This document shows positions 7,977 through 61,057 of a stretch of 64,000 nucleotides of DNA, piece by piece (positions within the stretch are counted from its first letter, which is position 1; each line of letters starts with the position of its first letter). The translations under genes and the position numbers were made by a program. This DNA is from a virus (lineage: Duplodnaviria > Heunggongvirae > Uroviricota > Caudoviricetes). The stretch covers positions 56,990 to 120,989 of IMG/VR virus record IMGVR_UViG_3300009095_001812. One strand, written 5' to 3'. The notes beneath the pieces were generated by a model. It made no database searches, was not told where the DNA came from, and was given only the letters and a program-made list of their open reading frames with translations.

Positions 7977-8865
7977 TAATATCTCTATAAGCTCTTTTAT
8001 TGGAGATTATATAGTACAAACCATCTTCTCTGTTCATAAATTCATTTGTAGCGTGAATCATGTTTGTATAATCATTTTCTCTAAATGAATTAATCTTGTT
8101 ATGAAGTTCTGAGTATAGAATTTTTGTCTTTTCTTTTGTTTTTTTAACAAAATCCCTCAAGTCTATGTAGCATTCTTTTGGAATATTGAGTTCATCTATG
8201 TTGTAGCATCCTATATACAGAGGTACGCAACCTCCAAACCAAGCGTCTGGCATTTTTTCCGAGAAGTATCCGTGAGAGTAAACTTCATCGTAGCAATTTT
8301 CTGGACAGATACAAAACCTAGCTTTTTGTAAAACTTCTAATTTGTTTTTTGCAGGTCCTTTGTAGTATGGGCGATCAATTGATTCTTGACCGTACCAGGA
8401 CACATCAAATTTTTTAGCGTATAAATAGTCTGCGATCTTTATTCTTACTTCATAAATGTTAGAATAGTGATCTGATGTTTTATTATTGGAAACAACAACA
8501 AAGCCCTGTCGCTCTGACCATTTGGGTCGGACGAGGGTTTCGTACTTAGGTGGGTCCTCCCAGGATGGATGGTTGATAATGTGTAATTTTTGATCTGGAA
8601 TGAAATTCATTCCAGGTTTACACCACGAAAATACCTTGTGGAACTTTTTGATTTCTTCAGAATAGTCGAGAGCTGTTACACATCTTGGCTCTAAACATAA
8701 GATAGAATCTTGGTCAAGAGGCCTTCTATTAGCTAAGTACCCAAGGGCAACATTTATATGTTTCGGGTCTTTTATTTTAGATCTATAAATTATTCCGTTT
8801 TCATCTTCGTAAATTTTCTCAATGCCCTTTTGTGGAAGATAGATAAAGTTGATTTCAATACCCAT
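7960..8865 (-). CDS. GT10-family (alpha-1,3/4-fucosyltransferase-like) glycosyltransferase
   Basis: NKLEVLQKARFCICPENC...GYFSEKMPDAWFGGCVPLYIG matches the GT10 motif. Confidence 0.75.
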   Translation of the reverse strand: MGIEINFIYLPQKGIEKIYEDENGIIYRSKIKDPKHINVALGYLANRRPLDQDSILCLEPRCVTALDYSEEIKKFHKVFSWCKPGMNFIPDQKLHIINHPSWEDPPKYETLVRPKWSERQGFVVVSNNKTSDHYSNIYEVRIKIADYLYAKKFDVSWYGQESIDRPYYKGPAKNKLEVLQKARFCICPENCYDEVYSHGYFSEKMPDAWFGGCVPLYIGCYNIDELNIPKECYIDLRDFVKKTKEKTKILYSELHNKINSFRENDYTNMIHATNEFMNREDGLYYIISNKRAYRDIIKSFL

Positions 8866-8881
8866 GTTATATAGTCCAAGT

Positions 8882-9631
8882 ATGCAAAAACAGTTTGTAA
8901 TAGTTATACCAAGCTACAATAATGCTAAGTGGTTTCGTAAAAATCTTAATTCGGCCCTAGCTCAAGATTATACCAACTATAGGATAATCTATACCGATGA
9001 TAATTCACCAGATGATACAGGTAAATTAGTACAGGAATTCCTTTCTTTGCATAAAAAGAAAGATAACATTATTCATCTTATAAGAAACACAGAAAGAAAG
9101 GGTGCTCTTCATAATCTCTATGATATGATTCACAGCTGTCAAGATGATGAAATTGTAGTAACTCTTGATGGAGATGATTGGTTCTATTCATCTAAAGTTC
9201 TATCCAAACTAAATGAAGTTTATTCTAATTCAGATGTATGGATGACATATGGTCAATATAGATCTTTTCCAGATAATCGTGTAGGTTGTTCTGGTAAAAT
9301 GCCAGACACAGTCATAGCCGAGGCTTCTTATAGAAGGTCGCAGTGGAGATCTTCTCATTTAAGAACGTTCTATTCTTGGCTATTCAAACAAATCAAGAAG
9401 GAAGATTTATTTTATGATGGTGAATTTTTCCCCACCGCTTGGGATTTGCCAATGATGTTTCCAATGCTTGAAATGGCCGGACAAAGACAGAAGTTCATTT
9501 CAGATATTCTGTACATTTATAATTGTGAAAATCCAATCAACGATTCAAAAGTAGATCTTGGAAAACAACAAGCGCTTGAACGAGTAGCTCGAAGCATGCC
9601 AAAGTACCCGTTACTGATTCAGCGTCCGTAG
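8882..9631 (+). CDS. Glycosyltransferase, GT2 family
   Basis: IVIPSYNN, DDNSPDDT and TLDGDDW motifs; start uncertain (8864 or 8882). Confidence 0.9.
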   Translation: MQKQFVIVIPSYNNAKWFRKNLNSALAQDYTNYRIIYTDDNSPDDTGKLVQEFLSLHKKKDNIIHLIRNTERKGALHNLYDMIHSCQDDEIVVTLDGDDWFYSSKVLSKLNEVYSNSDVWMTYGQYRSFPDNRVGCSGKMPDTVIAEASYRRSQWRSSHLRTFYSWLFKQIKKEDLFYDGEFFPTAWDLPMMFPMLEMAGQRQKFISDILYIYNCENPINDSKVDLGKQQALERVARSMPKYPLLIQRP

Positions 9632-10501
9632 CATTGTCTCATAAGCTGTGTGATATGAAACCCGATGGAACAACCCATTGGGTTTTTGTATTTCTCCATA
9701 CATCTCCTCTCTGTATGTATTGTAATCAAACTGATTGAAGTTTCGGATACGCTCGGCTAAAGTGTCAATTTGAAACTGGGCATTAGGCGGAACCTTAACG
9801 TATTTTCTAAGGTCAATCATTGTCTTGTTGCCCATACCAAAATCTTCGACATTATGACAGCCGATGTATAAAGGAACGCAACCAGAGATTAGGACATGAG
9901 GAAGCTTTTCGGTAAGGTAATTCCTGGAGTACAAAGGATCATATGTGTTCTCAGAACAAATTGAAAACCGAGCCTTTCTAAGAATGTTGTATTTATCTCC
10001 AATAGAGCCAACAAAGTATGGTTTACGCATCTTTTGCTGACCATACCAAGATATCTTGAAACCTCTTTGGTAAAGCTCATCTGCAAGTTTCTCTCGAAGA
10101 GAATAAATTGAAGCTTCATGAGATGATTTTTTTGGGTTTGCGATGATTATAATTTCATCATTACGTTCGTCCCAAGACGGGTTAGATTTTAGATTATCTA
10201 GTGTTGGATCGTATAATATAGATGGGAAATCAATCTTGACAATGTTAGGTAAATCGAAGCCCTCATACCATGTAAAAACCTTGTGAAACCCTCTTACATT
10301 TTCAGGATTAAAATCCTGAGGTCTGACAACTATCGGCTCTTGCATAAAGAAGCAATCACTTCCTTGAGGCTCTATTATTTGCGTGAATACATTGAATTTA
10401 TTAGGATCTCTTTGATTCCATACATGAACCGCTCCTAGTGCGCTTTTGTGGTGTTCGCTTGGAGGTCCAGAATGACCGCTATAAACTATATTTATGTCCA
10501 T
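9611..10501 (-). CDS. GT10-family glycosyltransferase (paralog of 7960-8865)
   Basis: DKYNILRKARFSICSEN...NYLTEKLPHVLISGCVPLYIG; start ATG 10501 with AAGGA RBS. Confidence 0.75.
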   Translation of the reverse strand: MDINIVYSGHSGPPSEHHKSALGAVHVWNQRDPNKFNVFTQIIEPQGSDCFFMQEPIVVRPQDFNPENVRGFHKVFTWYEGFDLPNIVKIDFPSILYDPTLDNLKSNPSWDERNDEIIIIANPKKSSHEASIYSLREKLADELYQRGFKISWYGQQKMRKPYFVGSIGDKYNILRKARFSICSENTYDPLYSRNYLTEKLPHVLISGCVPLYIGCHNVEDFGMGNKTMIDLRKYVKVPPNAQFQIDTLAERIRNFNQFDYNTYREEMYGEIQKPNGLFHRVSYHTAYETMLRTLNQ

Positions 10502-10534
10502 ACTTTCCTTTTGAGATATATAACAAAACTGATT

Positions 10535-10588
10535 ATGACTGTAACATTTAAACAGCTTGGAAAGTATGGAAGAAAAACTGATTTTTGA
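10535..10588 (+). pseudogene. Orphan N-terminal stump of GT11 fucosyltransferase (MTVTFKQLGKYGR-KTDF*)
   Basis: Near-identical to MIVTFKELGKYG at 11504; matches the GT11 N-terminal LGxxGRxGN region. Confidence 0.8.
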
Positions 10589-11507
10589 AATTTGGAATAA
10601 ACACTCTAGTGGGAAATCTGTCGCCAGTCTTGCAAAAGAGTATGGTATACATAGAAGTACTATTTTTATGGGTTTCAAAAAACATAATCTAAAAACACTA
10701 AGGAAAAATGATATTTACAATGAAATGTTTTCAAATCAAATATTGAAAATGTATACTGATGGATATTCGATGAATCGAATATCTAGTTATTTTGGAATTT
10801 CAACAAGAATTATTCATTCAATATTGCACAGTAATAACATCACTATAAAAAAACTATGGGAATATGATTCATATCAAAAACACAATATAAATGAGTTATT
10901 TGATAAAATTGATACTCCGGAAAAAGCTTATTTTTTAGGATTTTTATATGCTGATGGTAATGTTAATAAAAATTTGAATCAAGTAACATTAAAATTGAAA
11001 GAATCAGATATTCATATATTAAATGATATTAAAAAAACATTTGAAATTGGGAACAAGTTATATTTTGATCGGCCTGCAAATATAAATGCAGAAAATCAAT
11101 ATTCTTTGAAAATCATTAATAAGAAAATTCGAGATAATTTTGTAAAACATGGAGTAATTCCAAGAAAAACCTGGAAACTAAGTTATCCGTTTTGGTTGGA
11201 AAAACATTTACATTCTCATTTTGTTCGTGGTTATTTTGATGGTGATGGTTGTTTATCAATTGATTACAAAAGAAACAATGCTACTATTTCTATTTGTGGA
11301 ACATGGCAAATGTGTTCAGATTTAAAATTTATATTTGAAAATTATGTTGGAGTCAAATCTGTGATATCATCAGATAGAAAAATATTTAGGATAAGAATTA
11401 GAAGATATAGTAGTGTACTGGATACATGCGCCTGGATGTATAAAGGGGCCAATTTGAAGTTAAATCGAAAATATGAAAAATATCAATGTGTTATGGAGAT
11501 GAAATGA
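10566..11507 (+). CDS. Free-standing LAGLIDADG homing endonuclease with N-terminal HTH repeats
   Basis: AYFLGFLYADG and HFVRGYFDGDG motifs; the ATG lies inside the stump (t|ATG GAA GA). Confidence 0.9.
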   Translation: MEEKLIFEIWNKHSSGKSVASLAKEYGIHRSTIFMGFKKHNLKTLRKNDIYNEMFSNQILKMYTDGYSMNRISSYFGISTRIIHSILHSNNITIKKLWEYDSYQKHNINELFDKIDTPEKAYFLGFLYADGNVNKNLNQVTLKLKESDIHILNDIKKTFEIGNKLYFDRPANINAENQYSLKIINKKIRDNFVKHGVIPRKTWKLSYPFWLEKHLHSHFVRGYFDGDGCLSIDYKRNNATISICGTWQMCSDLKFIFENYVGVKSVISSDRKIFRIRIRRYSSVLDTCAWMYKGANLKLNRKYEKYQCVMEMK

Positions 11508-12255
11508 TTGTAACATTTAAAGAATTGGGAAAATATGGCAGTTGATGGGTAATGGCCTTTTTCAAATAGCCGCAACTATTGGGTATGCAAAGAAGCACAA
11601 TGTTAATTGTGTGCTCCCAAAATGGGAGCACACTCATGCTTTTCAGTTACCTCTAGATATGTTCAAGGACTTGAATACTATCAAAAGTACGACAAATTAT
11701 GAAGAGCCTAGATTTGCCTATTCTGAAATTCCTTTCAAACAGAATTGTAACTTACATGGGTATTTTCAAAGCTGGAGGTATTTTGGACATTGCGAGGAAT
11801 ACATTCGACATGTCCTAGCTCCCAATCATAAAACTTACAGTACAGAAAACTTTTCCGGGGTTTGTTCTATTCATGTAAGGAGAACGGATTATCTAAAATT
11901 TCCAGATCATCATCCAACACTGGATATGCAGTACTATGAAGCGGCAATGGATAGGGTTCCGGTATCTGATTTTATTGTATTCTCTGATGATATAGAGTGG
12001 TGTAAGAGTAATTTCAAGAACAGGAATGGAAAGAACATCGTAATTCAAAGTGCAAATGATCATTATACTGATTTTAGCCTTATGACATCAATGGAGCATT
12101 CAATTATTGCGAATTCATCCTTTTCCTGGTGGACAGCGTGGCTGGGCATCTCTTTGGATAAGGTTGTGATTGCTCCAAAAAATTGGTTTGGACCAGCTCT
12201 GAAGTCAACTCATCCTATAGATGACTTGATTCCTCCAGAGTGGATTTTGATTTAA
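11504..12255 (+). CDS. Alpha-1,2-fucosyltransferase (GT11), split in two frames: 11504-11545 (MIVTFKELGKYGS*) and 11545-12255 (MGNGLFQ...)
   Basis: GNGLFQIAA, GYFQSWRYF, SIHVRRTDY, FSDDIEWC and IIANSSFSWW GT11 motifs; TGATG overlap at 11543-11547. Confidence 0.85.
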
Positions 12256-12266
12256 GGTGAGGTGTT

Positions 12267-13247
12267 ATGGTAAGGGTTATGTATGCACCATTGAATTTTG
12301 GAGATATCGTTCAAGATGGCGTTTATGACGCTTTCGAACAGGCTGGTTGTGAATTGAAAGTATTTGACTACATGACTAAGTATGTTCATACAAAAAACAA
12401 CAGAAAAATTCGAACCGATTTCGTCACTGAGGTAAAGAATTTTCAACCTGATATGTTGTTTCTTCAGATTCAGCACACATCGGTAATTGATGCTAACACC
12501 ATCTCTGATGCAAAGCGAGCCTGTCCTAAGGTCAAGGTGGTGAATTGGACTGGTGATGTGCGTAATAATGTACCTCACACATACAGAAAGATTGGTACTG
12601 TTTCTGATTACAATCTAATTTCAAGTACTGGTCAGCTCAATATGTTTAGGCAGGCTATGCAAAATGTAGATTATCTACAAATAGGATACAATCCTAAACT
12701 ATATTTTCCACCAGAAACGCAGAGAGTAACATTCAAAAATGATGCTCTTTTCATTGGACATTATAATACAAGGGAAAGCTATCCCGGAACAGAGGCTCGT
12801 TTAAGAGCGTGTAAATTGTTGAGGGCTAGATTTGGTGAGCGTTTTGCTCTTTATGGTTTTGGGTGGCCAAAAGAAATCAAAACACTCGGCTCAATCAACC
12901 AAAGGCATGTTGCCTCAGAGTATCAAAACTCGGTATGTTCAATTTCTGTATCACACTATAATGAGATTGATCATTATTTCTCTGATCGGCTCTTAATGTG
13001 TTTGGCTTCTGGAAGGCCGTGTGTTGTTTTAGCATTCCCAAAATGGGAATCTTATTTCACAAATATGTCTGATCTCGTTATAGTGGACTCAGTAAACGAG
13101 ATCCCAGATGCTGTAGATATGCTTAAATCGAATCCTGAGTTGGCAAATTTTATAGGTGAACAGGGCGCAGCAAAGGTATTGGCTGAACATACTTATTACA
13201 GTAGAATTAAAGAGCTTTTAAATATGGTTGGTCTAAACGGAGAATGA
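12267..13247 (+). CDS. CgeB-like glycosyltransferase (GT-B, spore-maturation type)
   Basis: NWTGD, GYNPKLY and YFSDRL...LASGR...HTYYSRIKELL motifs. Confidence 0.75.
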   Translation: MVRVMYAPLNFGDIVQDGVYDAFEQAGCELKVFDYMTKYVHTKNNRKIRTDFVTEVKNFQPDMLFLQIQHTSVIDANTISDAKRACPKVKVVNWTGDVRNNVPHTYRKIGTVSDYNLISSTGQLNMFRQAMQNVDYLQIGYNPKLYFPPETQRVTFKNDALFIGHYNTRESYPGTEARLRACKLLRARFGERFALYGFGWPKEIKTLGSINQRHVASEYQNSVCSISVSHYNEIDHYFSDRLLMCLASGRPCVVLAFPKWESYFTNMSDLVIVDSVNEIPDAVDMLKSNPELANFIGEQGAAKVLAEHTYYSRIKELLNMVGLNGE

Positions 13248-24169: not shown

Positions 24170-24235
24170 ATGAGTAAGTCAAGAAAGATATTAGTTACTG
24201 GGTCTGGTGGTCTCTGTCAATATTTAGATATCTAA
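24170..24235 (+). pseudogene. Orphan N-terminal stump of NAD-dependent epimerase/dehydratase (MSKSRKILVTGSGG-LCQYLDI*)
   Basis: Matches MVKKINVLITGSGG at 25127 and breaks right after the TGSGG Rossmann motif. Confidence 0.8.
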
Positions 24236-24237
24236 AT

Positions 24238-25134
24238 ATGGTCATAAAAAGGAAAATAGGAATTGGTAGATTTGGAAGAGATGTTTTTGAATTTTTAATA
24301 AAGTGTCATACGTGTGATAAAGAGCAGTGGTTAAGTGGTAAAAATTGTAATTTTGGGGCCCGAAAATACTGTTCCAGATCATGTATAAACAAAGGAAGAA
24401 AGCATACAGATAAATGGAAAGAAACAATATCAAAAAGAAATACTGGACATGATAATCCTTTTTTTGGAAAAAAGCATTCAAAAAAATCGAAAAAGATAAT
24501 GTCAGAGTCGCATACTTGTGAAAATTCATTGAAGGCCGTAAAAACAAAAGAGTTATCAGAGATTGATTTCAAAAAATATTGGGCATCTTATGTATCAAAA
24601 TTTACAGGTGAAAATAATCATTTTTTCGGCAAAACTCATACAAAAGAAACAAGAGAACATTTATCAAAAACCAGATCAAAACTTATATCAAATGGAGTTT
24701 TAAATTTGAAACCGAACCATTATGGATTAAAGGGTTATTATACCTCAAAGAAGTCTGGAGAAACTTTTAGGTTCGATTCGTTTGTTGAATATTTAAGAAT
24801 GATTATCATTGATAATGATGCTGGGGTTTTAACCTGGACTAAAAGACACGGTATAAGAATACCATATGAAATGGATGGAATAACTAAAAATTATGTTCCA
24901 GATTTTCTAATAACGTTAATTGATGGATACATAACTATCGAAGAGGTAAAGGGTTATGAAAATACCCAAAAAAAAGAGGCAAAGTTCAATGCGTTAAAGT
25001 CTTATTGCAAAGATAAAGAAATTGGATGTAGTATAGTGTTATACAAAGATGTAAAAGATATATGTCCCCACCATTTTGGTAAAAGCATTGATACTTTGAG
25101 AAGTATGTATAAAAAGGGGCTTTTTAATGGTTAA
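24238..25134 (+). CDS. Homing-endonuclease-like protein: NUMOD3 repeats plus TnsA-like PD-(D/E)XK nuclease
   Basis: NPFFGKKHS and NHFFGKTHT NUMOD3 motifs; FDS..E...YVPDFLI...EEVKG nuclease motif. Confidence 0.8.
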   Translation: MVIKRKIGIGRFGRDVFEFLIKCHTCDKEQWLSGKNCNFGARKYCSRSCINKGRKHTDKWKETISKRNTGHDNPFFGKKHSKKSKKIMSESHTCENSLKAVKTKELSEIDFKKYWASYVSKFTGENNHFFGKTHTKETREHLSKTRSKLISNGVLNLKPNHYGLKGYYTSKKSGETFRFDSFVEYLRMIIIDNDAGVLTWTKRHGIRIPYEMDGITKNYVPDFLITLIDGYITIEEVKGYENTQKKEAKFNALKSYCKDKEIGCSIVLYKDVKDICPHHFGKSIDTLRSMYKKGLFNG

Positions 25135-26065
25135 AAAAATCAATGTATTGATAACGGGGTCGGGTGGTTTTGTTTTTGGAAACTTCATTAGACAAGCATT
25201 CTATTCAAAGAAGCCTTACAACATATCCAGTATAGATATGGTTCGTGAGTCTCACATTATACACAACATATATGTGAACTCAGATCATCAGTTTTACATA
25301 GCTGATATCAAGGACCCTCACATCTTGCATGTGATCTTTCAAAAAGAACGACCAGATATTGTAATACATGGGGCGGCGGAGAGTGTTGGTAATGCTCTCC
25401 CCGCCAATAATGTTGTAGGTACCCAAAACGTGATTGAGGAATGTCTAAAGTTAGGATCAGACCTCATCTATATTTCAACTAATGAGGTTTATGCTCCGCT
25501 GGATCAGAATCAAAATGCATGGACCGAAGACGGCCCTTTAGATCCTAAAAATCTCTATTCAGCTACCAAAGCGGCGGGTGAATTGTTAGTCAAGGCAGTG
25601 GCTAGTTCTCATGGATTGAAGTATTCAATTGTACGTCCAAGCTCTTGCTATGGACCTTGGCAGACCAAGGATAAACTCATCCCCTCTATCATCTCGTCTA
25701 TTCTTAATAGGCGCGATATTAGTATACGCGGCACAGGACAGCAGATGACGGATTGGTTGCATGTCTTTGACCTGTGCAAAGCTATATTCCAAATAATTGA
25801 TACTGGCGTAGATAACAATATATACAACGTTACAGCAAATCAAGAGTTTATGTCATTAGAAGTAGCTCAAATTGTTTGTAATATTCTTGGTGAAGGACAT
25901 GATTTAATCAAACATGTCGAGAGCGATCCTAAGTATGATTTTAGATTCGCAATGACCAATGACAAGATAAAATCTCTTGGTTGGGAGCCTGAGTTTAAAT
26001 TCAGGGGAGGAATCAAGGAAGTTTGTCAGTGGTATATCACAAATAAGTACGTCCTGGATTTGTAA
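25127..26065 (+). CDS. NAD-dependent nucleotide-sugar epimerase/dehydratase (RmlB-like SDR)
   Basis: ITGSGG, HGAAES, ISTNEVY, YSATK and DWLHVFD motifs. Confidence 0.85.
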   Translation: MVKKINVLITGSGGFVFGNFIRQAFYSKKPYNISSIDMVRESHIIHNIYVNSDHQFYIADIKDPHILHVIFQKERPDIVIHGAAESVGNALPANNVVGTQNVIEECLKLGSDLIYISTNEVYAPLDQNQNAWTEDGPLDPKNLYSATKAAGELLVKAVASSHGLKYSIVRPSSCYGPWQTKDKLIPSIISSILNRRDISIRGTGQQMTDWLHVFDLCKAIFQIIDTGVDNNIYNVTANQEFMSLEVAQIVCNILGEGHDLIKHVESDPKYDFRFAMTNDKIKSLGWEPEFKFRGGIKEVCQWYITNKYVLDL

Positions 26066-28486: not shown

Positions 28487-31258
28487 ATGACCTCGATCAT
28501 AAGGTTTGATAATTCGTGTAAAATTGTAGATGAAGACGAAGACGTACTCAGGCTCCTAGATAAAGAGCTTTCCTTCAGAATCGAAGGAGCCGAGTTCTCT
28601 GCGGCGTTTCAGGGTTATGTCAATGATGCCGGTGAATTCGTAACATGGGATGGAAGAAGACACCTTCTAACAAGTACAGGGAAATTTCCTGTAGGTTTAC
28701 TTCCAAGAGTACAGGAATTCTTCGCAAGAAGAAATCAATACATAGATATTATCGACCAGAGAACAGATAAAGGAAAACCAACACCTATAGATATCTCTGG
28801 TAATCTAAATAGCCTGGGTATGACTGTTAGGCCATATCAGGAGCTTGCTGCGAACACAGCTGTCAAAACAGATCGTGGAGTGATTCGATTAGCAACTGGT
28901 GGTGGTAAGTGCGAATCAATTGATTCGTTGCATATCACAGAGGATGGGCTTCTTGATTATGAAGAAATGCTAAATGGTGTTAAGCTAAATGATGGGGATG
29001 TTATTGAATATAAAAAATCTATTAGTACCTCACCTAAATTTGGAGGTAAAGATGAAACTTCTATGATTTATAGAGATGGATATGGCCCATCCAGAAAGAT
29101 AACTACATCATTTGGCTACACTCAAACTGCTACACCAAATCATAAAATACAAGTAATTTCACAAAATGGATTTGTTGAGTGGAAAAAATTCAAAGATCTC
29201 AAAGAAGGAGATTATGCTGCTATTTCATATGGCAATATGATGTTTGGTAAAAATGATATGCCTTTAGATGAGGCATATTGGTATGGTTTGTTATTTGGTG
29301 ATGGTTCTTTAACACTTGATCATTCTATTAGTTTTACAAGTATGGACACTCACTTACTAGATTTTTCTAAAAATTATCTGGTAAAAATTGGTCTAAAATT
29401 TAGTGAGTATGATACTAAAAGTAAAGCTAAAGACATTAAAGTTTATAGTAAAGAGTACAGAGATCGTTTAATTTTACTTGGTTTAAAAAAAGAAAAATCA
29501 ACAACTAAAACAATTCCACGTTCAATTAGAAGTTTACAAAAAGAACCTTTAAAAATGTTTTTAAGAGGACTTTTCGAAACGGATGGATGGGTTGGTAAAG
29601 AAAAGTCAAAACCTGTTGTTTGTATAGGGCTTTCAAATAAAAAAGCTATAGATCAATTACATCTTATACTTCTTAATTTTGGAATAATATCGTCTAGGCG
29701 AGTGAAAAAAACTACCCATGAGGATAGTCATATATTAACAATATACAGAAGTCATCTGGATTGTTTTATTGAAAGAATTGGATTTGATCCAAAGGGTAGA
29801 AAATATAAAGAGCTTAATGATGGTGTAGCTAATTTACCAAAACAAAACTCAAATATCTTTATACCTTATCTTTCAAAAAGATTAAAAATAATAACTGACA
29901 GAATAACTAGTGATGACAGGGAAAATTGTCCAATACCCTGGAATACTGTTCGGTCTTGGATAGGCGATTCTTCTTGGAGAAACCCTACAAAAGAAAATTT
30001 AGTTAAGTTTTTATATTGGGTTGAATCTAGTTCAATATTGTTAAGATCAGAAGCTCAGCATATACTTAATGATATTGATTGTGTATTTTTTGATAAAATA
30101 TCAAAAATTATAGAAACAATAACTGACAATTATGATTTTGTTGTTCCAAAAACTCATTCGTTTGTTTCTCAAGGTTTTGTAAATCATAATACGCTCATTG
30201 CTGCTTTGATTGCCGCAAAGCTTGGCAAGCCAACAATCATCTATGTAATTGGTCGTGACTTGCTTTATCAGCTTCAGAAGTTTTTCAAAAATATATTCGA
30301 TCAAGAAATAGGTATCATCGGAGATGGCAAGTGTGAAATTAAAGATATAAACATCGCAACTGTTTGGAGTGTTGGTCAGGCACTTGGTTTGAAGAAAAAT
30401 GCATCTCTGGATGATTCATCAGATAAGGAAAAGAATCTTGATCCGGAGAAGTTTCGGAAGGTCAAAGAAATGCTCTTGAACACTTCAGTCCACATCATGG
30501 ACGAATGTCATCTTGCAGCGTGCGATACCGTTCAAACGATCTCTCGCCACATCAAAGCTGAGTACGTCTACGGAATGTCTGCATCTCCATGGCGCGATGA
30601 TGGAGCAGACATGCTTATTGAGGCGTTCCTGGGGCCACGAATCATTGATATTTCAGCTCGCGAACTGATCAGTTCAGGATATCTTGTAGAGCCAGATATT
30701 CGTTTCCTTGCACCTACTCCTTACAAGTTCAAGTCAGGACAATATCAAAAAGTATATTCGAAGTACATCGTTGAAAACGAGCAACGAAACGGAATGATTG
30801 TGAAAGGAACTCTCAAGATGGTCGAGCAAGGCTTCGTACCATTGGTGTTGTTCCACACCATAAAACATGGCGATACTCTCTATGACCAATTGAAGAAACA
30901 TACTTCAGTTGCACTTCTGAGTGGAAAAGATAATTCCAACGTTCGAGAAAAGATAAAAGATCAGTTAGAAGAGGGGAAGATAAAGTGTATCGTTGCAAGT
31001 AAGATTTTTGATATTGGAATTGATCTTCCAATTTTATCAGGTCTTGTTATTGCGGGGGCGGGAAAGAGTTCGGTAAGAGCGCTTCAAAGGATTGGTAGGG
31101 TTATCAGGCCTTATAAAAACAAGAGCTTATCTGCCGTTCTCGACTTTGCCGATCAGGCACCTCATCTATTTGATCATGCAGAAGTTCGCCGCAAAATATA
31201 TGAGTCGGAGTTTAATGTAAAATGGCCGCTAAAAGGAAATGGACAGACGAACAGTTAA
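28487..31258 (+). CDS. Superfamily 2 DNA helicase (UvsW/Rad25-like) containing an intein
   Basis: RPYQ, ATGGGK/T, DECH, GMSASPWRDDG, IFDIGIDLP and QRIGRVIR motifs. Confidence 0.9.
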   Translation: MTSIIRFDNSCKIVDEDEDVLRLLDKELSFRIEGAEFSAAFQGYVNDAGEFVTWDGRRHLLTSTGKFPVGLLPRVQEFFARRNQYIDIIDQRTDKGKPTPIDISGNLNSLGMTVRPYQELAANTAVKTDRGVIRLATGGGKCESIDSLHITEDGLLDYEEMLNGVKLNDGDVIEYKKSISTSPKFGGKDETSMIYRDGYGPSRKITTSFGYTQTATPNHKIQVISQNGFVEWKKFKDLKEGDYAAISYGNMMFGKNDMPLDEAYWYGLLFGDGSLTLDHSISFTSMDTHLLDFSKNYLVKIGLKFSEYDTKSKAKDIKVYSKEYRDRLILLGLKKEKSTTKTIPRSIRSLQKEPLKMFLRGLFETDGWVGKEKSKPVVCIGLSNKKAIDQLHLILLNFGIISSRRVKKTTHEDSHILTIYRSHLDCFIERIGFDPKGRKYKELNDGVANLPKQNSNIFIPYLSKRLKIITDRITSDDRENCPIPWNTVRSWIGDSSWRNPTKENLVKFLYWVESSSILLRSEAQHILNDIDCVFFDKISKIIETITDNYDFVVPKTHSFVSQGFVNHNTLIAALIAAKLGKPTIIYVIGRDLLYQLQKFFKNIFDQEIGIIGDGKCEIKDINIATVWSVGQALGLKKNASLDDSSDKEKNLDPEKFRKVKEMLLNTSVHIMDECHLAACDTVQTISRHIKAEYVYGMSASPWRDDGADMLIEAFLGPRIIDISARELISSGYLVEPDIRFLAPTPYKFKSGQYQKVYSKYIVENEQRNGMIVKGTLKMVEQGFVPLVLFHTIKHGDTLYDQLKKHTSVALLSGKDNSNVREKIKDQLEEGKIKCIVASKIFDIGIDLPILSGLVIAGAGKSSVRALQRIGRVIRPYKNKSLSAVLDFADQAPHLFDHAEVRRKIYESEFNVKWPLKGNGQTNS
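28910..30190 (+). mobile_element. Intein with LAGLIDADG endonuclease (427 aa) in helicase Walker A
   Basis: GGGK/CESI ... GFVNHN/TLI junctions; YGLLFGDG and LRGLFETDG blocks. Confidence 0.92.
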
Positions 31259-54061: not shown

Positions 54062-55531
54062 ATGTTGCTTGAATCTGTGAATGGATTAAAAACAACATCT
54101 AAGATCAATGTTTTAGTTAGATGTGATAATTGTGAAGATGAATATAGTATTCAATATAGATCTATTTACATGTCAAGAAACCGTAGAGGTTCTGAAAAGG
54201 ATTTTTGTATTAAATGTGCAAGAAAACTGGCGTCAATAAATAATCGGCGAGGAACTGTTCATGACTCAAATGGATATTCTTATATTCAAAAAGGAACTGA
54301 AAGAATTTTTTTGCATACCAAAGTAGTTGAAGAAAATCTCGGCAGATCTTTAACACAAACTGAAGTAGTTCATCATATAAATGGAGATAAAAAAGATAAT
54401 AATTTTGAGAATTTGCATGTTTTTGAAAATCAAAAACAACATATGCTTTCTCATAATTCTTTAGAAGAATTATCCTTTTATCTTGTAAAGAATAATTATA
54501 TAAAATTTGATTCAAATTCAGCTAGATATTATTTAAATAAATCTAATAATAACTTTGAAAAAAGTTATGGTTTTGAAAATATAGCTATAAAACAAAAAAA
54601 GAATATTTGCAAATCAAGGCTTGATACAAATATAAGATCTGAGTTTGTTAGGGGTATATTTTTGGACGTACCATTAGTTGCTGCTAATATGTCTACGGTT
54701 ATCAATTCAAGCTTCTATTTGAAATTATATGAACTTGGAGCTATTGGAATTTTGCATCGGGCTCAGTCTATAGAATCACTTATAAATGAAGTGAATGTAG
54801 TTAGTAATAAATGTCATATAGTTGCGGCGTCAATAGGGGTTGGTGATAGTTCTTTAGAAGATGCGAAATCTCTTATACAAAATAATTGTAATGTTTTATG
54901 TATAGATATTGCTCATGGATATTCAAATGAGACAATCGAATTGGCAAAAAAAATAAAACAGTACTCTCGAACGACAAAAATTATATTAGGTAATTCTGTA
55001 AATACTGATATTTTGTTAGAGTCTAACGATTATGTTGATGCCATTAAGGTTGGAATAGCTCAAGGGTTTGCTTGTGAAACTAAAAATACCGCTGGTTGCA
55101 CAGAAAAACAATTTTCGGCTGTTTTAAAATTTAAAGATTTGGCACACAAGCTCGGAATGCCAATAATATCAGATGGTGGCATTCGAGAGGCCGCAGATTT
55201 TACAAAAGCTATAGCCGCTGGTGCTTCAAGCGTTATGGCTGGTAAAATATTTGCAGAGTGTGAGGAATCTGCTGGTGAAATAGTGTCTCATAATGATTCT
55301 AATAAAAAACTTTATGCTGGAATGGCTTCTTCTTATGTACAAGAATCATGGAAGGGTGGTTTAAAATTAGGAACTTGTGCCGAAGGTGGAATTAGATACT
55401 TAGAAATATCCGGAAGTGTTAAAGACATGATTGAAAGATATTCTGGAGCTTTAAGATCTGGTATAACTTATGCTGGTGCAGTTGATATAAAATCATTTCA
55501 TAGCAACGTAGAATTTATTGAATTGATATAA
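54062..55531 (+). CDS. Fusion of Zn-finger/HNH endonuclease and CBS-less IMPDH/GMP reductase family enzyme
   Basis: VVHHINGDKKDN..ENL HNH motif; then PLVAANM, IDIAHG, KVGIAQGFACET (catalytic Cys loop), ISDGGI, VMAG, YAGMAS and LRSGITYAG from about 54563. Confidence 0.88.
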   Translation: MLLESVNGLKTTSKINVLVRCDNCEDEYSIQYRSIYMSRNRRGSEKDFCIKCARKLASINNRRGTVHDSNGYSYIQKGTERIFLHTKVVEENLGRSLTQTEVVHHINGDKKDNNFENLHVFENQKQHMLSHNSLEELSFYLVKNNYIKFDSNSARYYLNKSNNNFEKSYGFENIAIKQKKNICKSRLDTNIRSEFVRGIFLDVPLVAANMSTVINSSFYLKLYELGAIGILHRAQSIESLINEVNVVSNKCHIVAASIGVGDSSLEDAKSLIQNNCNVLCIDIAHGYSNETIELAKKIKQYSRTTKIILGNSVNTDILLESNDYVDAIKVGIAQGFACETKNTAGCTEKQFSAVLKFKDLAHKLGMPIISDGGIREAADFTKAIAAGASSVMAGKIFAECEESAGEIVSHNDSNKKLYAGMASSYVQESWKGGLKLGTCAEGGIRYLEISGSVKDMIERYSGALRSGITYAGAVDIKSFHSNVEFIELI

Positions 55532-55941: not shown

Positions 55942-58140
55942 ATGTCAGATATAGAAAAAGCTAATTATGAAGCTAAGCAAGCAAGAAATAACGAATCAGC
56001 AGAGCAGCTTTTGGGATTGTACTTCCCAGTGCTTGACCACGGGTTTGTATCCCTTGTTGATTTTATGGGATCAGATGCTGGAATCGCACAAGCAGCTCGT
56101 TGTTCTTATGGTGCAGGAACTCGGGCTGTTAATGACGATAGGGCTCTTATCCGTTATCTCATTCGTCACAAGCATACCTCCCCATTGGAACAAGTGGAAC
56201 TCAAGTTCCATTGTGTTTCTGGCGATACTCGGATATCAACAAATTTAGGAGTTATTAAAATTGAAGATGCTATTAATGCTTCATACGCTCATAACACTGT
56301 AGATGTATCAGAGTGTGGGGTTATAAAATCTGGAAAGAAAAAGCTTTATAAGCTAAATCTTGACCGTGGTTTTTCTATTAAAATAACATCAGATCATAAA
56401 CTTAGGGTTCTAGATAATACTGCGTCTCTTGTTTGGAAATCTCTTGAAGAAATTTTGGATGATGATTATCTTTTATTATCATCTAAAGATACGTTTTTTT
56501 GTGAGGCTGACCATATTTTTAATAATTTTCACTACGATAAAAAAACGCACAAATCAAGAGTTATAAAATTTCCTAAAATATTAACCAAAGAACTCGCTGA
56601 ACTAGTGGGATATTATATGGGTGATGGTTCTTGCTCTAATGAAACATTGGAATTTCCAGTTTCAGATAAGTACCCACAAATTGTTACTAAAATTTCTAAT
56701 ATGATTAAGCAAGTTTTTGACGTAGAACCTTCTCAAAATTCATCTGATGGAATGATAAAGATTCGTCTTAACTCAGTTGAAGCGGTTGCTTGGTGGAGAG
56801 CTAATGGCCTGTCTAAAACAGAGGCTAGAGACGCTTTCATTCCAGAGTGTTTTTGGTCTTCTAAAAAAGAAATGGCGTTTGCTTTCTTTGCTGGTTTATT
56901 TGGGGCGGATGGTAGTGTTTCTGAAACTAATGGTGTTAGTTTAACAACTACATCAAAGAGATTGGCTGAAGAAACTCAAACGCTTATGGCTTTTCTTGGT
57001 ATTCCAATGACAAAGCTATATAGACCAGATAACTATATACTTTATACATTTACAAATAATGGCTTACAAAGATATCGTAAATATATAGGATTTACTTGTC
57101 AGTTAAAACAGGAGAAGCTTTCAAAGCTTGAATTGTTATTTTCTCGTACTGAAGCCATTCCACATGCTAAAGCTATAATTGAAAAATATGGGTTAAATCG
57201 TAATGAGCTGCATTCTCAATATTATTCGGGTTGTAATCTTCCTCGTAAACATTGCCCGGATGATTTGGATGAAAACATTTATTTATCAATTCAAAGTATA
57301 GAACCCTTGGGGGAAGAAGATGTTTGGGATATTTCAGTTCCAAAAACAGAAATGTTTCAGGCTAATGGTATAATTGTTCATAATTGCAAGATGCCAATCT
57401 TTGTTGCTCGTCAGTGGGTTCGGCATCGCACAGCTTCTTTGAATGAAATGTCTGGAAGGTATTCTGTAATGCCTCTTCAGTTCTATACTCCTAAGATGGA
57501 GAATTTTTCTTATCAATCAAAAGATAATAAACAAGGGCGCTCTGCTCAAACAGAAGCGAACTCTTATAATTCAGCAGTTACAAGATTTAATAACACTCGT
57601 GAACATATCAAAGATAATTATGAATGGTTATTAAAAGAAGATGTAGCGCGCGAACTGGCACGTATTGATCTTCCTCTCTCAACATACACAGAGTGGTATT
57701 GGAAGATTGATCTACACAACCTCATGCATTTCTTAAGATTGCGTTGTGATTCTCATGCACAGTATGAGATTCGTGTCTTTGCAGATATCATGGCTGGGAT
57801 GGTCAAGATGGTCACGCCTGCTGCGTACGAGGCTTGGTTGGACTACTCAATTGGATCTGAAAACTTCTCATTTCAAGAAATGCAGGCTCTTTACTCTACA
57901 ATGCAAAGCATGGCAAGTAGTGGAAGTATCTCTTGCATTGAAGAAGAATTTATGTTCAATTCAGATGAACATAAAAAAGAATGGGGTCAGAAGTTTGGGA
58001 TGACATTAAGAGAGACTAATGAATTCATTGATAAAATTTCTCAAAAGAAAACGCTTCCAAGCTTCAACCTGGACCTTTCAGTTGCGAAGACGCCCGAGTA
58101 TTTTCGACAAGAGGCGGAAAAATATGTACCGAGCGTTTGA
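55942..58140 (+). CDS. thyX: Flavin-dependent thymidylate synthase containing an intein
   Basis: LDHGFVSLVD.MG.D..I..AAR.SY, HTSPLEQ, RQWVRHR...NEMSGRY, ELAR..LP and LRLR...HAQYEIR motifs. Confidence 0.93.
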   Translation: MSDIEKANYEAKQARNNESAEQLLGLYFPVLDHGFVSLVDFMGSDAGIAQAARCSYGAGTRAVNDDRALIRYLIRHKHTSPLEQVELKFHCVSGDTRISTNLGVIKIEDAINASYAHNTVDVSECGVIKSGKKKLYKLNLDRGFSIKITSDHKLRVLDNTASLVWKSLEEILDDDYLLLSSKDTFFCEADHIFNNFHYDKKTHKSRVIKFPKILTKELAELVGYYMGDGSCSNETLEFPVSDKYPQIVTKISNMIKQVFDVEPSQNSSDGMIKIRLNSVEAVAWWRANGLSKTEARDAFIPECFWSSKKEMAFAFFAGLFGADGSVSETNGVSLTTTSKRLAEETQTLMAFLGIPMTKLYRPDNYILYTFTNNGLQRYRKYIGFTCQLKQEKLSKLELLFSRTEAIPHAKAIIEKYGLNRNELHSQYYSGCNLPRKHCPDDLDENIYLSIQSIEPLGEEDVWDISVPKTEMFQANGIIVHNCKMPIFVARQWVRHRTASLNEMSGRYSVMPLQFYTPKMENFSYQSKDNKQGRSAQTEANSYNSAVTRFNNTREHIKDNYEWLLKEDVARELARIDLPLSTYTEWYWKIDLHNLMHFLRLRCDSHAQYEIRVFADIMAGMVKMVTPAAYEAWLDYSIGSENFSFQEMQALYSTMQSMASSGSISCIEEEFMFNSDEHKKEWGQKFGMTLRETNEFIDKISQKKTLPSFNLDLSVAKTPEYFRQEAEKYVPSV
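56212..57384 (+). mobile_element. ThyX intein with LAGLIDADG endonuclease (391 aa)
   Basis: LKFH/CVSGDT ... ANGIIVHN/CKMP junctions; GYYMGDG and AGLFGADG blocks. Confidence 0.92.
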
Positions 58141-60146: not shown

Positions 60147-60176
60147 ATGTACACATACCTCGATATCGAGGTATGA
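60147..60176 (+). pseudogene. Orphan N-terminal stump of DEDDh exonuclease (MYTYLDIE-V*)
   Basis: Matches the ExoI motif FYILDVET of the gene at 61035; its stop overlaps the endonuclease ATG (ATGA). Confidence 0.7.
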
Positions 60177-61057
60177 CAATGTTAGTACAGATTCCAACAA
60201 GTTGTGAGAAAAAAGTCTTAATAGAATGTGATTTTAAAATATCATCTAAATGTAAATTACAATATACAAAAGTATATAAAAATGTTTTAAAGGGTAGAGA
60301 AAACAATAATGGAAAAGATCGTTGTTGTTATTGTTTTAACACAATTACAAAACGGGGAGAAAATAATTTTAATTTCAAATATTTAAAAAATGAATCATTT
60401 TTTAAAGATATTGATTCTGAGTTGAAAGCATATTTATTAGGGTGGGTTGCTGGTGATGGGAGTCTCAAAAAACGCAGTTTACAATTATCAGTGCATAAAA
60501 AAGATAAAGAGATTATATATTTGTTTCAGCGCTCAATTACTCCAGATGGTCCGATATATGAGCGCGATTATGATAATACTATAAATATAATAATCAACTC
60601 AATTGTTTTAGTTAATGATTTATGTAAACAATTAAATGTGAGAATTGGTAAAAAATCAGATAAAATTTCACTACCAAATTTATCTGATGAATTACTAATA
60701 CACTTTATAAGAGGTCTTATAGATAGTGATGGTCATATAGGTAAAATAAATACATCTATAAGAAGACCTCCAAATTGTAGTTATTGCTCAACATCATCAT
60801 TAATTAAAGATCAAATTATTGAGTTTTGCAAATCAAAAAATATAAAATATTATCAAAGTAAATTTTCTTTACATTGGCAAGGGGCTTATGCTTTGGTTTT
60901 CATGAAAATGATTTATGAAAATGCAAACTTCTTCTTAAAAAGAAAATATGATCTTTATTTAGAGTGGTCTACTTGGGTTCCATATCGAGGAACGTTAAAT
61001 TTTCCTCCTTCTTATAAGAAGAAAAAGGAAAATAATGATAAAATTTTATATTCTTGA
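60173..61057 (+). CDS. Free-standing LAGLIDADG homing endonuclease with N-terminal Zn finger
   Basis: AYLLGWVAGDG and HFIRGLIDSDG motifs. Confidence 0.9.
   Translation: MTMLVQIPTSCEKKVLIECDFKISSKCKLQYTKVYKNVLKGRENNNGKDRCCYCFNTITKRGENNFNFKYLKNESFFKDIDSELKAYLLGWVAGDGSLKKRSLQLSVHKKDKEIIYLFQRSITPDGPIYERDYDNTINIIINSIVLVNDLCKQLNVRIGKKSDKISLPNLSDELLIHFIRGLIDSDGHIGKINTSIRRPPNCSYCSTSSLIKDQIIEFCKSKNIKYYQSKFSLHWQGAYALVFMKMIYENANFFLKRKYDLYLEWSTWVPYRGTLNFPPSYKKKKENNDKILYS

What the first reader, a model, noticed from the sequence alone, without database searches (positions are those of the whole stretch)
10535..11570. Fucosyltransferase cassette: precise insertion with an out-of-frame replacement N-terminus
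Seen: joining stump codon AGA (10573) directly to ATG 11545 gives MTVTFKQLGKYGR-MGNGLFQIAA, a clean GT11 N-terminus, so the element may have inserted without deleting target sequence. The element's own copy (MIVTFKELGKYGS*) stops in a TGATG overlap and is out of frame with the rest of the gene. Inference: possible explanations are reinitiation giving a 13-aa-shorter enzyme, a -1 frameshift at AGT TGA, RNA-level excision, or a sequencing error. The LAGLIDADG ORF fills the whole insert, leaving no room for a group I intron core.
Basis: partly seen in the sequence, partly recalled or inferred. Interest (0 to 1): 0.7.

Follow-up and report, generated by a model that had tools for sequence, protein, structure and literature searches.

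The report
Homing-endonuclease cassette breaks phage fucosyltransferase gene
A selfish DNA-cutting-enzyme gene has landed 13 codons into a huge phage's fucosyltransferase gene and brought its own copy of those codons, and the 2-base frame break after that copy looks real, because a second phage with a related endonuclease has a break at the same codon boundary.

Summary
Stump (10535-10573), LAGLIDADG endonuclease ORF (10566-11507), second copy of the 13 N-terminal codons (11504-11542, stop 11543-45) and GT11 body (11545-12255) lie as described. Stump plus body gives the 249-aa family-consensus protein.

This is a free-standing homing-endonuclease (HE) cassette, not an intron. GC is 26% against 38% in the flanks. 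No Rfam intron hit and no junction pairing were found.

Related huge-phage contigs repeatedly carry a LAGLIDADG gene immediately 5' of GT11 (L164, L245, L354, relic in L328). L324/L325 are the empty-site form matching L164.

In L164 (HE 56% identical) the N-terminus is also out of frame with the body. It has one extra base at the same GR|xGN codon boundary. Of 207 distinct GT11 loci checked, only these two are broken.

A sequencing error is therefore unlikely. The break most likely marks the HE cleavage site and travels with the HE as a self-immunity lesion or repair scar.

No frameshift or bypass signal is present. GT11 is probably made, if at all, as a protein lacking strand beta1, by reinitiation at TGATG.

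The kind is known: fungal mitochondrial mORF gene hybrids and the T4 MobA/gene 60 element. This scan has noted mirror-image cases on other DNA. The recurrent frame break is the new part.

The parts
9611..10501 (-). Divergently transcribed GT10-like glycosyltransferase gene. It is the left neighbour, and only 33 nt separate its ATG from the stump ATG.
   Evidence: ORF list. Pfam PF00852, E 6e-5, just under the family cut-off.
10535..10573 (+). Stump: the resident first 13 codons of GT11 (MTVTFKQLGKYGR). No Shine-Dalgarno sequence lies upstream.
   Evidence: It matches the family N-terminus in 11/13 residues of P0001.
10574..10588 (+). Out-of-family tail of the stump ORF (KTDF, then TGA). This is the first part of the insert.
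10566..11507 (+). Free-standing double-motif LAGLIDADG homing endonuclease with two N-terminal HTH modules, 313 aa. The catalytic Asp codons are at 10953-55 (D130) and 11244-46 (D227). Its ATG lies inside the stump.
   Evidence: Pfam PF14528, E 1.5e-8, plus HTH hits. phrog_4645, E 4e-55. The motifs are invariant in 10 homologues. GC is 26.4% against 38% in the flanks.
11504..11545 (+). Cassette-borne copy of the 13 N-terminal codons (MIVTFKELGKYGS, then TGA). GGAG lies 5 nt upstream (11495-98).
11543..11544 (+). The 2 extra bases (TG) at the codon 13/14 boundary that break the frame. This is the presumed centre of the endonuclease target site.
   Evidence: Codon alignment with the stump, L164, L324, L245 and L328. 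Survey of 207 loci.
11545..12255 (+). GT11 fucosyltransferase body, 236 aa, starting at the M of GR-M-GN. All family-invariant residues are kept.
   Evidence: Pfam PF01531, E 3e-30. Alignment A2 invariants. No rate acceleration against P0001.
11609..11633 (+). Perfect 11-bp hairpin inside the GT11 body, over the VLPKWEH codons, followed by a weak T tract. Its relation to the cassette is unknown.
   Evidence: Fold -20.5 kcal/mol, z -3.98.

Best explanation
**What it is.** Bases 10574-11544 (971 nt) are a free-standing LAGLIDADG homing-endonuclease cassette. It entered a huge phage's GT11 (alpha-1,2-fucosyltransferase family) gene by repair of a double-strand break at the codon 13/14 boundary (GR|MGN).

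**How it got there.** In donor genomes the endonuclease gene sits immediately upstream of GT11, with its stop overlapping the GT11 start.
- The right side of the break was repaired by homology in the GT11 body. This copied in the donor's first 13 codons and the endonuclease gene.
- The left side was joined without homology, possibly through the short ATGGAAGAA match. The recipient's own first 13 codons were therefore left behind as a stump, and that stump now supplies the endonuclease's ATG.

**The frame break.** The 2 extra bases between the donor-type N-terminus and the body are real. They mark the endonuclease's cleavage site. They are either the lesion that makes endonuclease-carrying alleles uncuttable or a repair scar. 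Because they lie between the endonuclease gene and the body, they are inherited with the endonuclease.

**Consequence.** The phage no longer encodes a contiguous GT11. Ribosomes that start at the well-placed GGAG/ATG of the 13-codon mini-ORF stop at TGA and can restart at the overlapping ATG. The product would be a 236-aa enzyme without strand beta1, probably weakened or inactive. The endonuclease's drive offsets that cost.

**Shown:** the anatomy, the duplication, the foreign composition, the recurrence of endonucleases 5' of GT11, and the second break at the same boundary.

**Inferred:** the position of the cleavage site, the immunity role of the break, the mode of left-junction joining, and reinitiation.
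For: - **Anatomy and duplication:**
- **Endonuclease identity and intact catalytic motifs:**
- **Foreign composition:** 26% GC against 38% in the flanks.
- **No intron:**
- **Same gene order in relatives, with a LAGLIDADG gene directly 5' of GT11:**
  - L164: GT2, then HE, then GT11.
  - L245: GT2, HE, GT11, then a GT1_2 gene, syntenic with the window.
  - L354.
  - L328: an 80-aa HE relic.
  - L324/L325: empty site, GT2 directly followed by an intact GT11.
- **Second break at the same boundary:** L164 reads CAT GGT CGT [G] CTG GGC AAT. That is 1 extra base after the Arg codon, the same boundary as the window's AGT [TG] ATG GGT AAT and as the stump/insert junction.
- **Break is specific to this HE clade:** only the window and L164 are broken among 207 distinct GT11 loci, of which 121 are clearly in frame.
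- **Likely further cases:** two more partners of this HE clade are called as truncated GT11s starting MEELGN and MEEWGN. MEE is the +1 reading of TAT GGA AGA (YGR). They share contig lengths with their HEs and occur on up to 12 contigs.
- **The cassette moves between diverged GT11 genes:** broken alleles are each closest to an intact allele. The window is 74% identical to P0001, and L164 is 76-77% identical to P0006/P0007.
- **Normal outcome of the process in the same window:** a second cassette at 24170-26065 has the same stump, nuclease and replacement-N-terminus layout, in frame.
- **Translation signals:** GGAG lies before the mini-ORF and the stump has none.
- **Structural role of the lost residues:** in the AlphaFold model of P0001 (pLDDT 96), residues 2-4 form strand beta1 and the helix starts at the GN motif. 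The fold matches FUT8, NodZ and POFUT1.
- **Precedent:** in the T4 MobA element, a homologous replacement segment plus an insert in the target blocks self-cleavage (bioRxiv 10.1101/2022.08.31.505936).
Against: - Cleavage specificity is untested. The position of the cut is inferred only from three coinciding boundaries.
- Only two broken loci could be read as DNA.
- The extra bases differ between the two loci (+2 and +1), so a single inherited lesion is not proven.
- The body keeps every invariant residue and shows no rate acceleration (16 against 15 unique changes).
- The cassette-borne mini-ORFs of the window and L164 keep the family residues T, F, E, L, G, G despite synonymous differences.
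- Together, the last two points could mean that the whole protein is still needed and is somehow made, which plain truncation does not explain.
- In L164 the mini-ORF runs 38 codons past the body start, so TGATG-type coupling is not general.
Confidence: 0.6

Rival explanations
1. Assembly or sequencing error. The true sequence is in frame and this is an ordinary replacement-N-terminus cassette, like the one at 24170-26065.
For: The sequence is a metagenome assembly. The sister cassette in the same window is in frame. Three other endonuclease-linked GT11 genes are in frame.
Against: - An independent contig has a break at the same codon boundary, while its empty-site relative is intact.
- Only these 2 of 207 loci are broken, and both carry this endonuclease clade.
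- P0018, called from a +1-frame ATG, recurs on 12 contigs.
- There is no long homopolymer at the site.
- Adding one base would put an extra residue into a motif whose spacing never varies in the family.
Confidence: 0.08
2. Programmed recoding. Ribosomes shift frame (-1/+2 in the window, +1 in L164) or hop over the extra bases and make a full-length enzyme. This would be a minimal analogue of T4 gene 60 bypassing.
For: - The mini-ORF has a good Shine-Dalgarno sequence and keeps family residues in both loci.
- The body is intact and not accelerated.
- In the window a stop codon directly follows the last sense codon.
- MobA/gene 60 is a precedent.
Against: - Neither site allows re-pairing (AGU to CAG or GUU; CGU to GUG).
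- The two loci need different shifts, and L164 has no stop at the site.
- There is no downstream structure (z 0.2 to 0.8).
- The only heptamer (G GGA AAA, 11527-33) would give GK-IWQL-MGN, losing YGR and adding a residue.
- A Gly-to-Gly or Ser-to-GGU hop would delete conserved residues.
Confidence: 0.07
3. Split enzyme. The 13-aa (or 17-aa stump) peptide is made separately and supplies strand beta1 in trans to the 236-aa body. This would be a genes-in-pieces solution, like Aeh1 NrdA split by mobE.
For: - Both pieces have start signals.
- The N-terminal peptide sequence is conserved in both broken loci.
- The body is intact.
- There is a precedent for endonuclease-split phage enzymes that reassemble (PMC3045599, listed).
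Against: - A 13-residue peptide is unlikely to be stable or to bind tightly.
- No added interaction domains are present, unlike the Aeh1 and MobA cases.
- In L164 the N-terminal ORF runs on into 25 unrelated residues.
Confidence: 0.08
4. RNA-level excision. Bases 10574-11544 are an intron (group I, or archaeal bulge-helix-bulge type) and splicing joins the stump to the body.
For: Joining 10573 to 11545 gives a perfect family N-terminus. Archaeal introns can be filled almost wholly by a LAGLIDADG ORF.
Against: - No Rfam intron match, even at E up to 10.
- The 5' exon ends in A, not U.
- There is no pairing between the two junctions (z -0.06).
- The genes are phage-like, with overlapping starts and stops and PHROG replication genes.
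- It does not explain the cassette-borne N-terminal copy, or the L164 break, where there is no stump.
Confidence: 0.03

Closest known systems
Fungal mitochondrial mobile endonuclease ORFs (mORFs) that create gene hybrids: Allomyces macrogynus atp6; Glomus atp6, atp9, cox2 and nad3 (PMC3630166)
   Same: An endonuclease ORF (often LAGLIDADG) lies inside a host gene together with a foreign copy of the gene's terminus. The native terminus is displaced as a diverged duplicate.
   Different: - Here the N-terminus is replaced, not the C-terminus.
- The host is a huge phage glycosyltransferase gene.
- The foreign terminus is out of frame with the gene core, whereas the mORF-borne termini are in phase.
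Phage T4 MobA / gene 39-gene 60 mobile cassette (bioRxiv 10.1101/2022.08.31.505936 and the Bonocora et al. work it cites)
   Same: - A free-standing endonuclease sits next to its target gene.
- The element encodes a segment homologous to the target region (HomR), as the second N-terminal copy does here.
- Extra bases in the target of endonuclease-carrying alleles block self-cleavage.
- The host gene is split.
   Different: - MobA is an HNH nickase.
- Its insert is 50 nt and is bypassed by a defined signal (matched GGA codons, a stop, a stem-loop and a nascent peptide). None of these is present here.
- The break here is 1-2 nt.
Intronless homing of T4 seg/mob endonucleases, and the Aeh1 mobE insertion that splits nrdA (PMC2988022, PMC3045599)
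   Same: - A promoter-less endonuclease gene sits between or within conserved genes.
- It spreads by break repair with co-conversion of flanks.
- It can leave a gene in pieces.
   Different: - T4 free-standing enzymes are GIY-YIG or HNH and often cut hundreds of bases away.
- Here the enzyme is LAGLIDADG, and the inferred cut is about 40 nt from its gene.
- Here the left junction left a stump.
Second cassette in the same window (24170-26065): NUMOD3/PD-(D/E)xK-like nuclease in a nucleotide-sugar epimerase/dehydratase gene
   Same: It has the same layout: a stump ending at a conserved motif (GSGG), then the nuclease, then a replacement N-terminus whose ATG overlaps the nuclease stop.
   Different: The nuclease family is different, and the replacement N-terminus is in frame.

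Membership tests
LAGLIDADG homing endonuclease, free-standing | Two LAGLIDADG motifs, each with its catalytic acidic residue | tested here: met
   PF14528, E 1.5e-8. LGFLYADGN (D130) and GYFDGDGC (D227) are invariant in 10 homologues.
LAGLIDADG homing endonuclease, free-standing | Not inside an intron or an intein | tested here: met
   No Rfam intron. The ORF is in a different frame from both GT11 parts.
LAGLIDADG homing endonuclease, free-standing | Presence/absence polymorphism at a fixed site among related genomes | tested here: met
   L164 carries the HE, and L324/L325 show the empty GT2|GT11 junction. For the window's own closest relative (P0001) no DNA could be fetched.
LAGLIDADG homing endonuclease, free-standing | Site-specific cleavage of the endonuclease-free allele, with the carrying allele resistant | not testable with these tools
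   Inferred only from the coinciding boundaries at codon 13/14.
mORF-type endonuclease plus replacement-terminus gene hybrid | Endonuclease ORF within a host gene, flanked by a diverged duplicate of the gene's terminus | tested here: met
   31/39 nt duplicate, unique in the genome.
mORF-type endonuclease plus replacement-terminus gene hybrid | The element-borne terminus is in phase with the gene core | tested here: not met
   2 extra bases at 11543-44.
T4 MobA/gene 60-type cassette with translational bypass | Element-encoded homologous segment, plus extra bases in the target of carrier alleles | tested here: met
   The second N-terminal copy, with a +2 (window) or +1 (L164) insert at the same boundary. 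That this boundary is the target is an inference.
T4 MobA/gene 60-type cassette with translational bypass | Bypass signals: matched take-off and landing codons, a stop after take-off, a stem-loop | tested here: not met
   No matched codons would keep the conserved sequence. There is no structure. A stop follows only in the window.
Group I intron with LAGLIDADG ORF | Conserved ribozyme core; U before the 5' splice site | tested here: not met
   No Rfam hit at E up to 10. The ORF fills 942 of 971 nt. The 5' exon ends in A.
-1 programmed ribosomal frameshift site | Slippery heptamer with a downstream structure, giving the conserved protein | tested here: not met
   G GGA AAA (11527-33) would replace YGR by IWQL. 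The fold z-score is 0.56. There is no equivalent in L164.
Glycosyltransferase family 11 (PF01531) | Profile match and family-invariant residues, including the HxRRxD and NSSFSWW motifs | tested here: met
   E 3e-30. Invariant columns are kept in the window body. The fold of the intact relative matches FUT8, NodZ and POFUT1.
Glycosyltransferase family 11 (PF01531) | Contiguous N-terminal strand beta1 plus the GRxGN motif | tested here: not met
   Residues 1-13 are encoded in another frame and as a separate stump.

The most novel reading that the evidence does not exclude
This endonuclease lineage protects itself with a 1-2-base insertion in the middle of the enzyme's most conserved motif, and the phage still makes active fucosyltransferase. 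It would do so either by an unrecognised short-range recoding event or by assembling the enzyme from a 13-residue beta-strand peptide and the body. That would be a minimal counterpart of the T4 gene 60/MobA arrangement, arising in an unrelated endonuclease family.
Probability: 0.13. Interest if true: 0.8.

Novelty: new variant of a known kind. Interest (0 to 1): 0.5.

Why it matters
- **Homing without upstream homology.** It gives a clean natural snapshot of a free-standing homing endonuclease invading a gene when the upstream flank has no homology. The result is a stump, a borrowed N-terminus and an exact breakpoint.
- **A hot spot for selfish elements.** The 5' end of GT11 is repeatedly occupied by LAGLIDADG genes in huge phages. 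Some GT11 relatives also carry inteins.
- **How carriers avoid self-cleavage.** Two carriers of one endonuclease clade are frame-broken at the same codon boundary. This bears on what self-protection costs the host gene. If the enzyme is still made, it would add a second, independent case to the single known example of recoding tied to endonuclease immunity.
- **Annotation.** Gene callers report these genes as short GT11s starting MGN, MEELGN or MVVLGN, and miss the break.

Tried and rejected
- **Intron:** an Rfam scan of 9500-13000 at E up to 10 found no intron family.
- **Junction pairing:** cofolding the two junctions to look for a bulge-helix-bulge gave z -0.06.
- **Frameshift stimulators:** folds of the break regions in the window and L164 gave z 0.2 to 0.8.
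- **Public phage records:** a blastn search found only short endonuclease matches.
- **DNA of the closest GT11 (P0001, P0002):** I could not read these contigs, nor those of the P0018/P0123 and P0025/P0128 pairs.
- **Collection scans that did not find those contigs:**
  - endonuclease as a single sequence in viral contigs;
  - endonuclease alignment in metagenome, viral and genome collections (only L164/L085 was close);
  - P0124 in genome contigs;
  - P0018, P0025 and P0032/P0022 in viral contigs;
  - the exact junction pattern in viral contigs.
- **Four apparent extra frame breaks** (L017, L027, L352, L380) were alignment offsets, and all four are in frame.
- **Co-conversion tract:** a sliding identity profile of the body against P0001 showed no mosaic boundary at protein level.
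- **P0242** (96% identical start, 118 aa) ends in translated sequencing adapter, by my recognition of the motif. It says nothing about the junction.
- **Deletion between the 39-nt repeats** was considered as a way to restore the gene and rejected, because the 2 extra bases lie downstream of the repeat.
Full report
**Setting.** The window is bases 56990-120989 of a 208-kb IMG/VR virus record that CheckV rates 49% complete. The same endonuclease protein is also on record on a 446-kb contig. Genes are densely packed on one strand with overlapping stops and starts. PHROG hits include a DnaB-like helicase, thymidylate synthase and other phage replication genes. This is a huge phage, so bacterial translation rules apply. 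The finding lies in a glycan-gene cluster: GT2 at 8849-9631, a GT10-like gene on the minus strand, GT11, a Glyco_trans_1_2 gene and a sulfotransferase.

- The stump is ATG 10535 to AGA 10573 (MTVTFKQLGKYGR). It then runs KTDF and stops.
- A 313-aa ORF runs from ATG 10566, inside the stump in another frame, to TGA 11505-07.
- ATG 11504 overlaps that stop and opens a second copy of the 13 codons (MIVTFKELGKYGS). It ends at TGA 11543-45.
- ATG 11545 overlaps that stop and opens the 236-aa GT11 body.
- The two 39-nt copies share 31 bases. Nothing else in the genome reaches 26/39. Identity ends exactly at the ATG and at codon 13.
- Full-length relatives start M[TI]VTF.xLG.YGR[LMI]GN.LFQ, and the closest two (74% and 62% identical) are 249 aa. 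That equals the 13 stump codons plus the 236-aa body.

**The insert is a free-standing homing endonuclease gene, not an intron.**
- The ORF has both LAGLIDADG motifs with their acidic residues. These are invariant across ten homologues of 45-58% identity. It also has two N-terminal HTH modules.
- Its GC content is 26%, against 38% for the flanking genes.
- The ORF fills 942 of the 971 inserted bases.
- Rfam finds no intron, even at E up to 10.
- The 5' and 3' junctions do not pair.
- The last base before the insert is A, not the U that group I splicing needs.

**Related loci show where this element normally lives.**
- L164 is a 131-kb viral contig whose endonuclease is 56% identical. Its order is GT2, endonuclease, GT11. 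The endonuclease starts 4 nt after the GT2 stop, and its last codons overlap the GT11 start.
- L324 and L325 have the same GT2-GT11 junction with no endonuclease and an intact GT11.
- More distant LAGLIDADG genes occupy the same place in L245, which is syntenic with the window through the next gene, and in L354. L328 keeps an 80-aa relic there. In all three the GT11 is in frame.
- The donor form is therefore endonuclease-then-GT11.

**How the stump arose (inference).** The window differs from the donor form only in having a stump and a different left neighbour. A break at codon 13/14 would explain this. It would have been repaired by homology on the body side and joined without homology on the upstream side. 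The recipient's first 13 codons would stay, and the donor's endonuclease and first 13 codons would be copied in. The nine bases ATGGAAGAA shared by the stump end (with the following A) and the endonuclease start may have guided that join. I cannot show this.

**A second cassette in the same window has the same layout.**
- The stump MSKSRKILVTGSGG... lies at 24170-24235.
- A NUMOD3/PD-(D/E)xK-like nuclease lies at 24238-25134.
- The replacement N-terminus MVKKINVLITGSGG... has an ATG that overlaps the nuclease stop. It is in frame with a nucleotide-sugar epimerase/dehydratase body at 25127-26065.
- This is what the process normally gives.

**The frame break is the unusual part, and it is not isolated.** A codon alignment shows three sequences:
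- window: TAT GGC AGT [TG] ATG GGT AAT
- L164: CAT GGT CGT [G] CTG GGC AAT
- empty-site L324: CAT GGT CGA TTT GGT AAT

L164 thus has one extra base directly after the Arg codon of GR|xGN. That is the same boundary as the window's two extra bases and as the stump/insert junction.

Of these, 121 have a recognisable N-terminus in frame and 85 have N-termini too divergent for my simple score. Only the window and L164 are broken. Four other candidates were alignment offsets.

Two further GT11 proteins share contig lengths with endonucleases of this clade. P0018 pairs with P0123 on a 32,801-nt contig, and P0025 pairs with P0128 on a 5,504-nt contig. Gene callers start them at MEELGN and MEEWGN. MEE is what TAT GGA AGA (YGR) reads in the +1 frame. 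P0018 recurs on 12 contigs. I could not read their DNA, so this remains an inference.

A random sequencing error in the window is unlikely. I put it at 0.08.

**What the break means.** Three independent boundaries coincide at one codon junction in the family's most conserved N-terminal motif. Such a motif is the kind of sequence homing endonucleases target. I infer that the enzyme cuts there. I also infer that the extra bases either block cutting of carrier alleles or are a repair scar. Because they lie between the endonuclease gene and the body, any homing event would copy them along. In the GT11 comparison each broken allele is closest to an intact one. The window is 74% identical to P0001, and L164 is 76-77% identical to P0006/P0007. 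P0025 is at most 57% identical to anything compared. The endonuclease, with its break, therefore moves among diverged GT11 genes. The T4 MobA element offers a close parallel. It carries a segment homologous to the target and a 50-nt insert that stops MobA from nicking its own genome (bioRxiv 10.1101/2022.08.31.505936).

**How GT11 is expressed, if at all.**
- No recoding signal is present. No re-pairing is possible at either site. The two loci need different shifts. There is no downstream structure. The only slippery-looking heptamer would remove the conserved YGR.
- The cassette-borne mini-ORF has GGAG five bases before its ATG, and the stump has nothing comparable. Its TGA overlaps the body's ATG. 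Termination-reinitiation is the simplest route, and it would give a protein that starts at MGNG.
- In the AlphaFold model of the intact relative P0001 (pLDDT 96), residues 2-4 are strand beta1 and the first helix starts at the GN motif. The fold matches FUT8, NodZ and POFUT1. From general knowledge of Rossmann-like domains, loss of beta1 should weaken or abolish the enzyme.

**Evidence against simple decay.**
- The body keeps all invariant residues.
- It shows no rate acceleration against P0001 (16 against 15 unique changes).
- The mini-ORFs of the window and L164 keep T, F, E, L, G and G through synonymous differences.

Recent invasion into intact genes explains the first two points but not clearly the third. 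I therefore keep recoding (0.07) and a two-piece enzyme (0.08) as live rivals.

**Comparison with what is known.** The architecture mirrors the fungal mitochondrial mORF gene hybrids, where an endonuclease ORF arrives with a foreign C-terminus and displaces the native one (PMC3630166). It is also related to intronless homing and to gene splitting by T4-type endonucleases (PMC2988022; PMC3045599). Earlier notes of this scan describe a mirror-image C-terminal case in another giant phage (e1-5406890) and a LAGLIDADG gene wedged between two glycosyltransferase genes elsewhere (e1-1611265). I did not re-test either note. The new points here are the N-terminal version with a retained stump, the repeated use of the GT11 5' end by LAGLIDADG genes in huge phages, and above all the frame break at one codon boundary in two carriers of one endonuclease clade.

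**Limits.** Only two broken loci could be read as DNA. The cleavage site, the immunity role and the expression route are inferences.

Noticed in passing
window 24170-26065: Second cassette with a stump, a nuclease and a replacement N-terminus. Stump MSKSRKILVTGSGG... (24170-24235); NUMOD3/PD-(D/E)xK-like nuclease (24238-25134); in-frame replacement N-terminus of a nucleotide-sugar epimerase/dehydratase (25127-26065).
   Followed up: partly
window 11609-11633: Perfect 11-bp hairpin (-20.5 kcal/mol, z -3.98) inside the GT11 body, over the VLPKWEH codons, followed by a weak T tract. It could be chance codon complementarity or an internal terminator or processing site.
   Followed up: partly
P0244, P0257, P0320 (GT11 relatives, 534-539 aa): These GT11 genes carry an insert of about 290 aa that looks like an intein (begins CQPTG, ends THN), placed just before the IIANSSFSWW motif. 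GT11 therefore hosts inteins as well as endonuclease cassettes.
   Followed up: no
window 54062-55531: A 489-aa ORF combines an HNH endonuclease domain (residues 12-172) with a dehydrogenase (residues 166-487). This may be an endonuclease fused to, or inserted at, the 5' end of another gene.
   Followed up: no
window 28487-31258 and 55942-58140: The helicase (923 aa) has a phrog_4645 endonuclease match at residues 244-402. The thymidylate synthase ORF (732 aa) has a long unrelated N-terminal or internal segment. Both probably contain inteins.
   Followed up: no
L002 1236-2687 (own genome C1:8993-10444): A LAGLIDADG paralogue (302 aa, phrog_4645) lies between two small ORFs (82 and 106 aa; the second has an HEVTH motif). 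Stops and starts overlap on both sides. This may be another gene split by an endonuclease. Neither small ORF has a PHROG match.
   Followed up: partly
window 60173-61057: A further LAGLIDADG paralogue (294 aa, phrog_4645, E 1e-28) with a Cys-rich N-terminus lies between an 88-aa ORF and an exonuclease-like gene.
   Followed up: no
L328 4735-4977: An 80-aa relic of a LAGLIDADG endonuclease (only the C-terminal ...YLYKDSSIHLDRKYKKY part remains) lies directly 5' of an intact GT11, with an ATGA overlap. This is a decaying stage of the same kind of element.
   Followed up: partly
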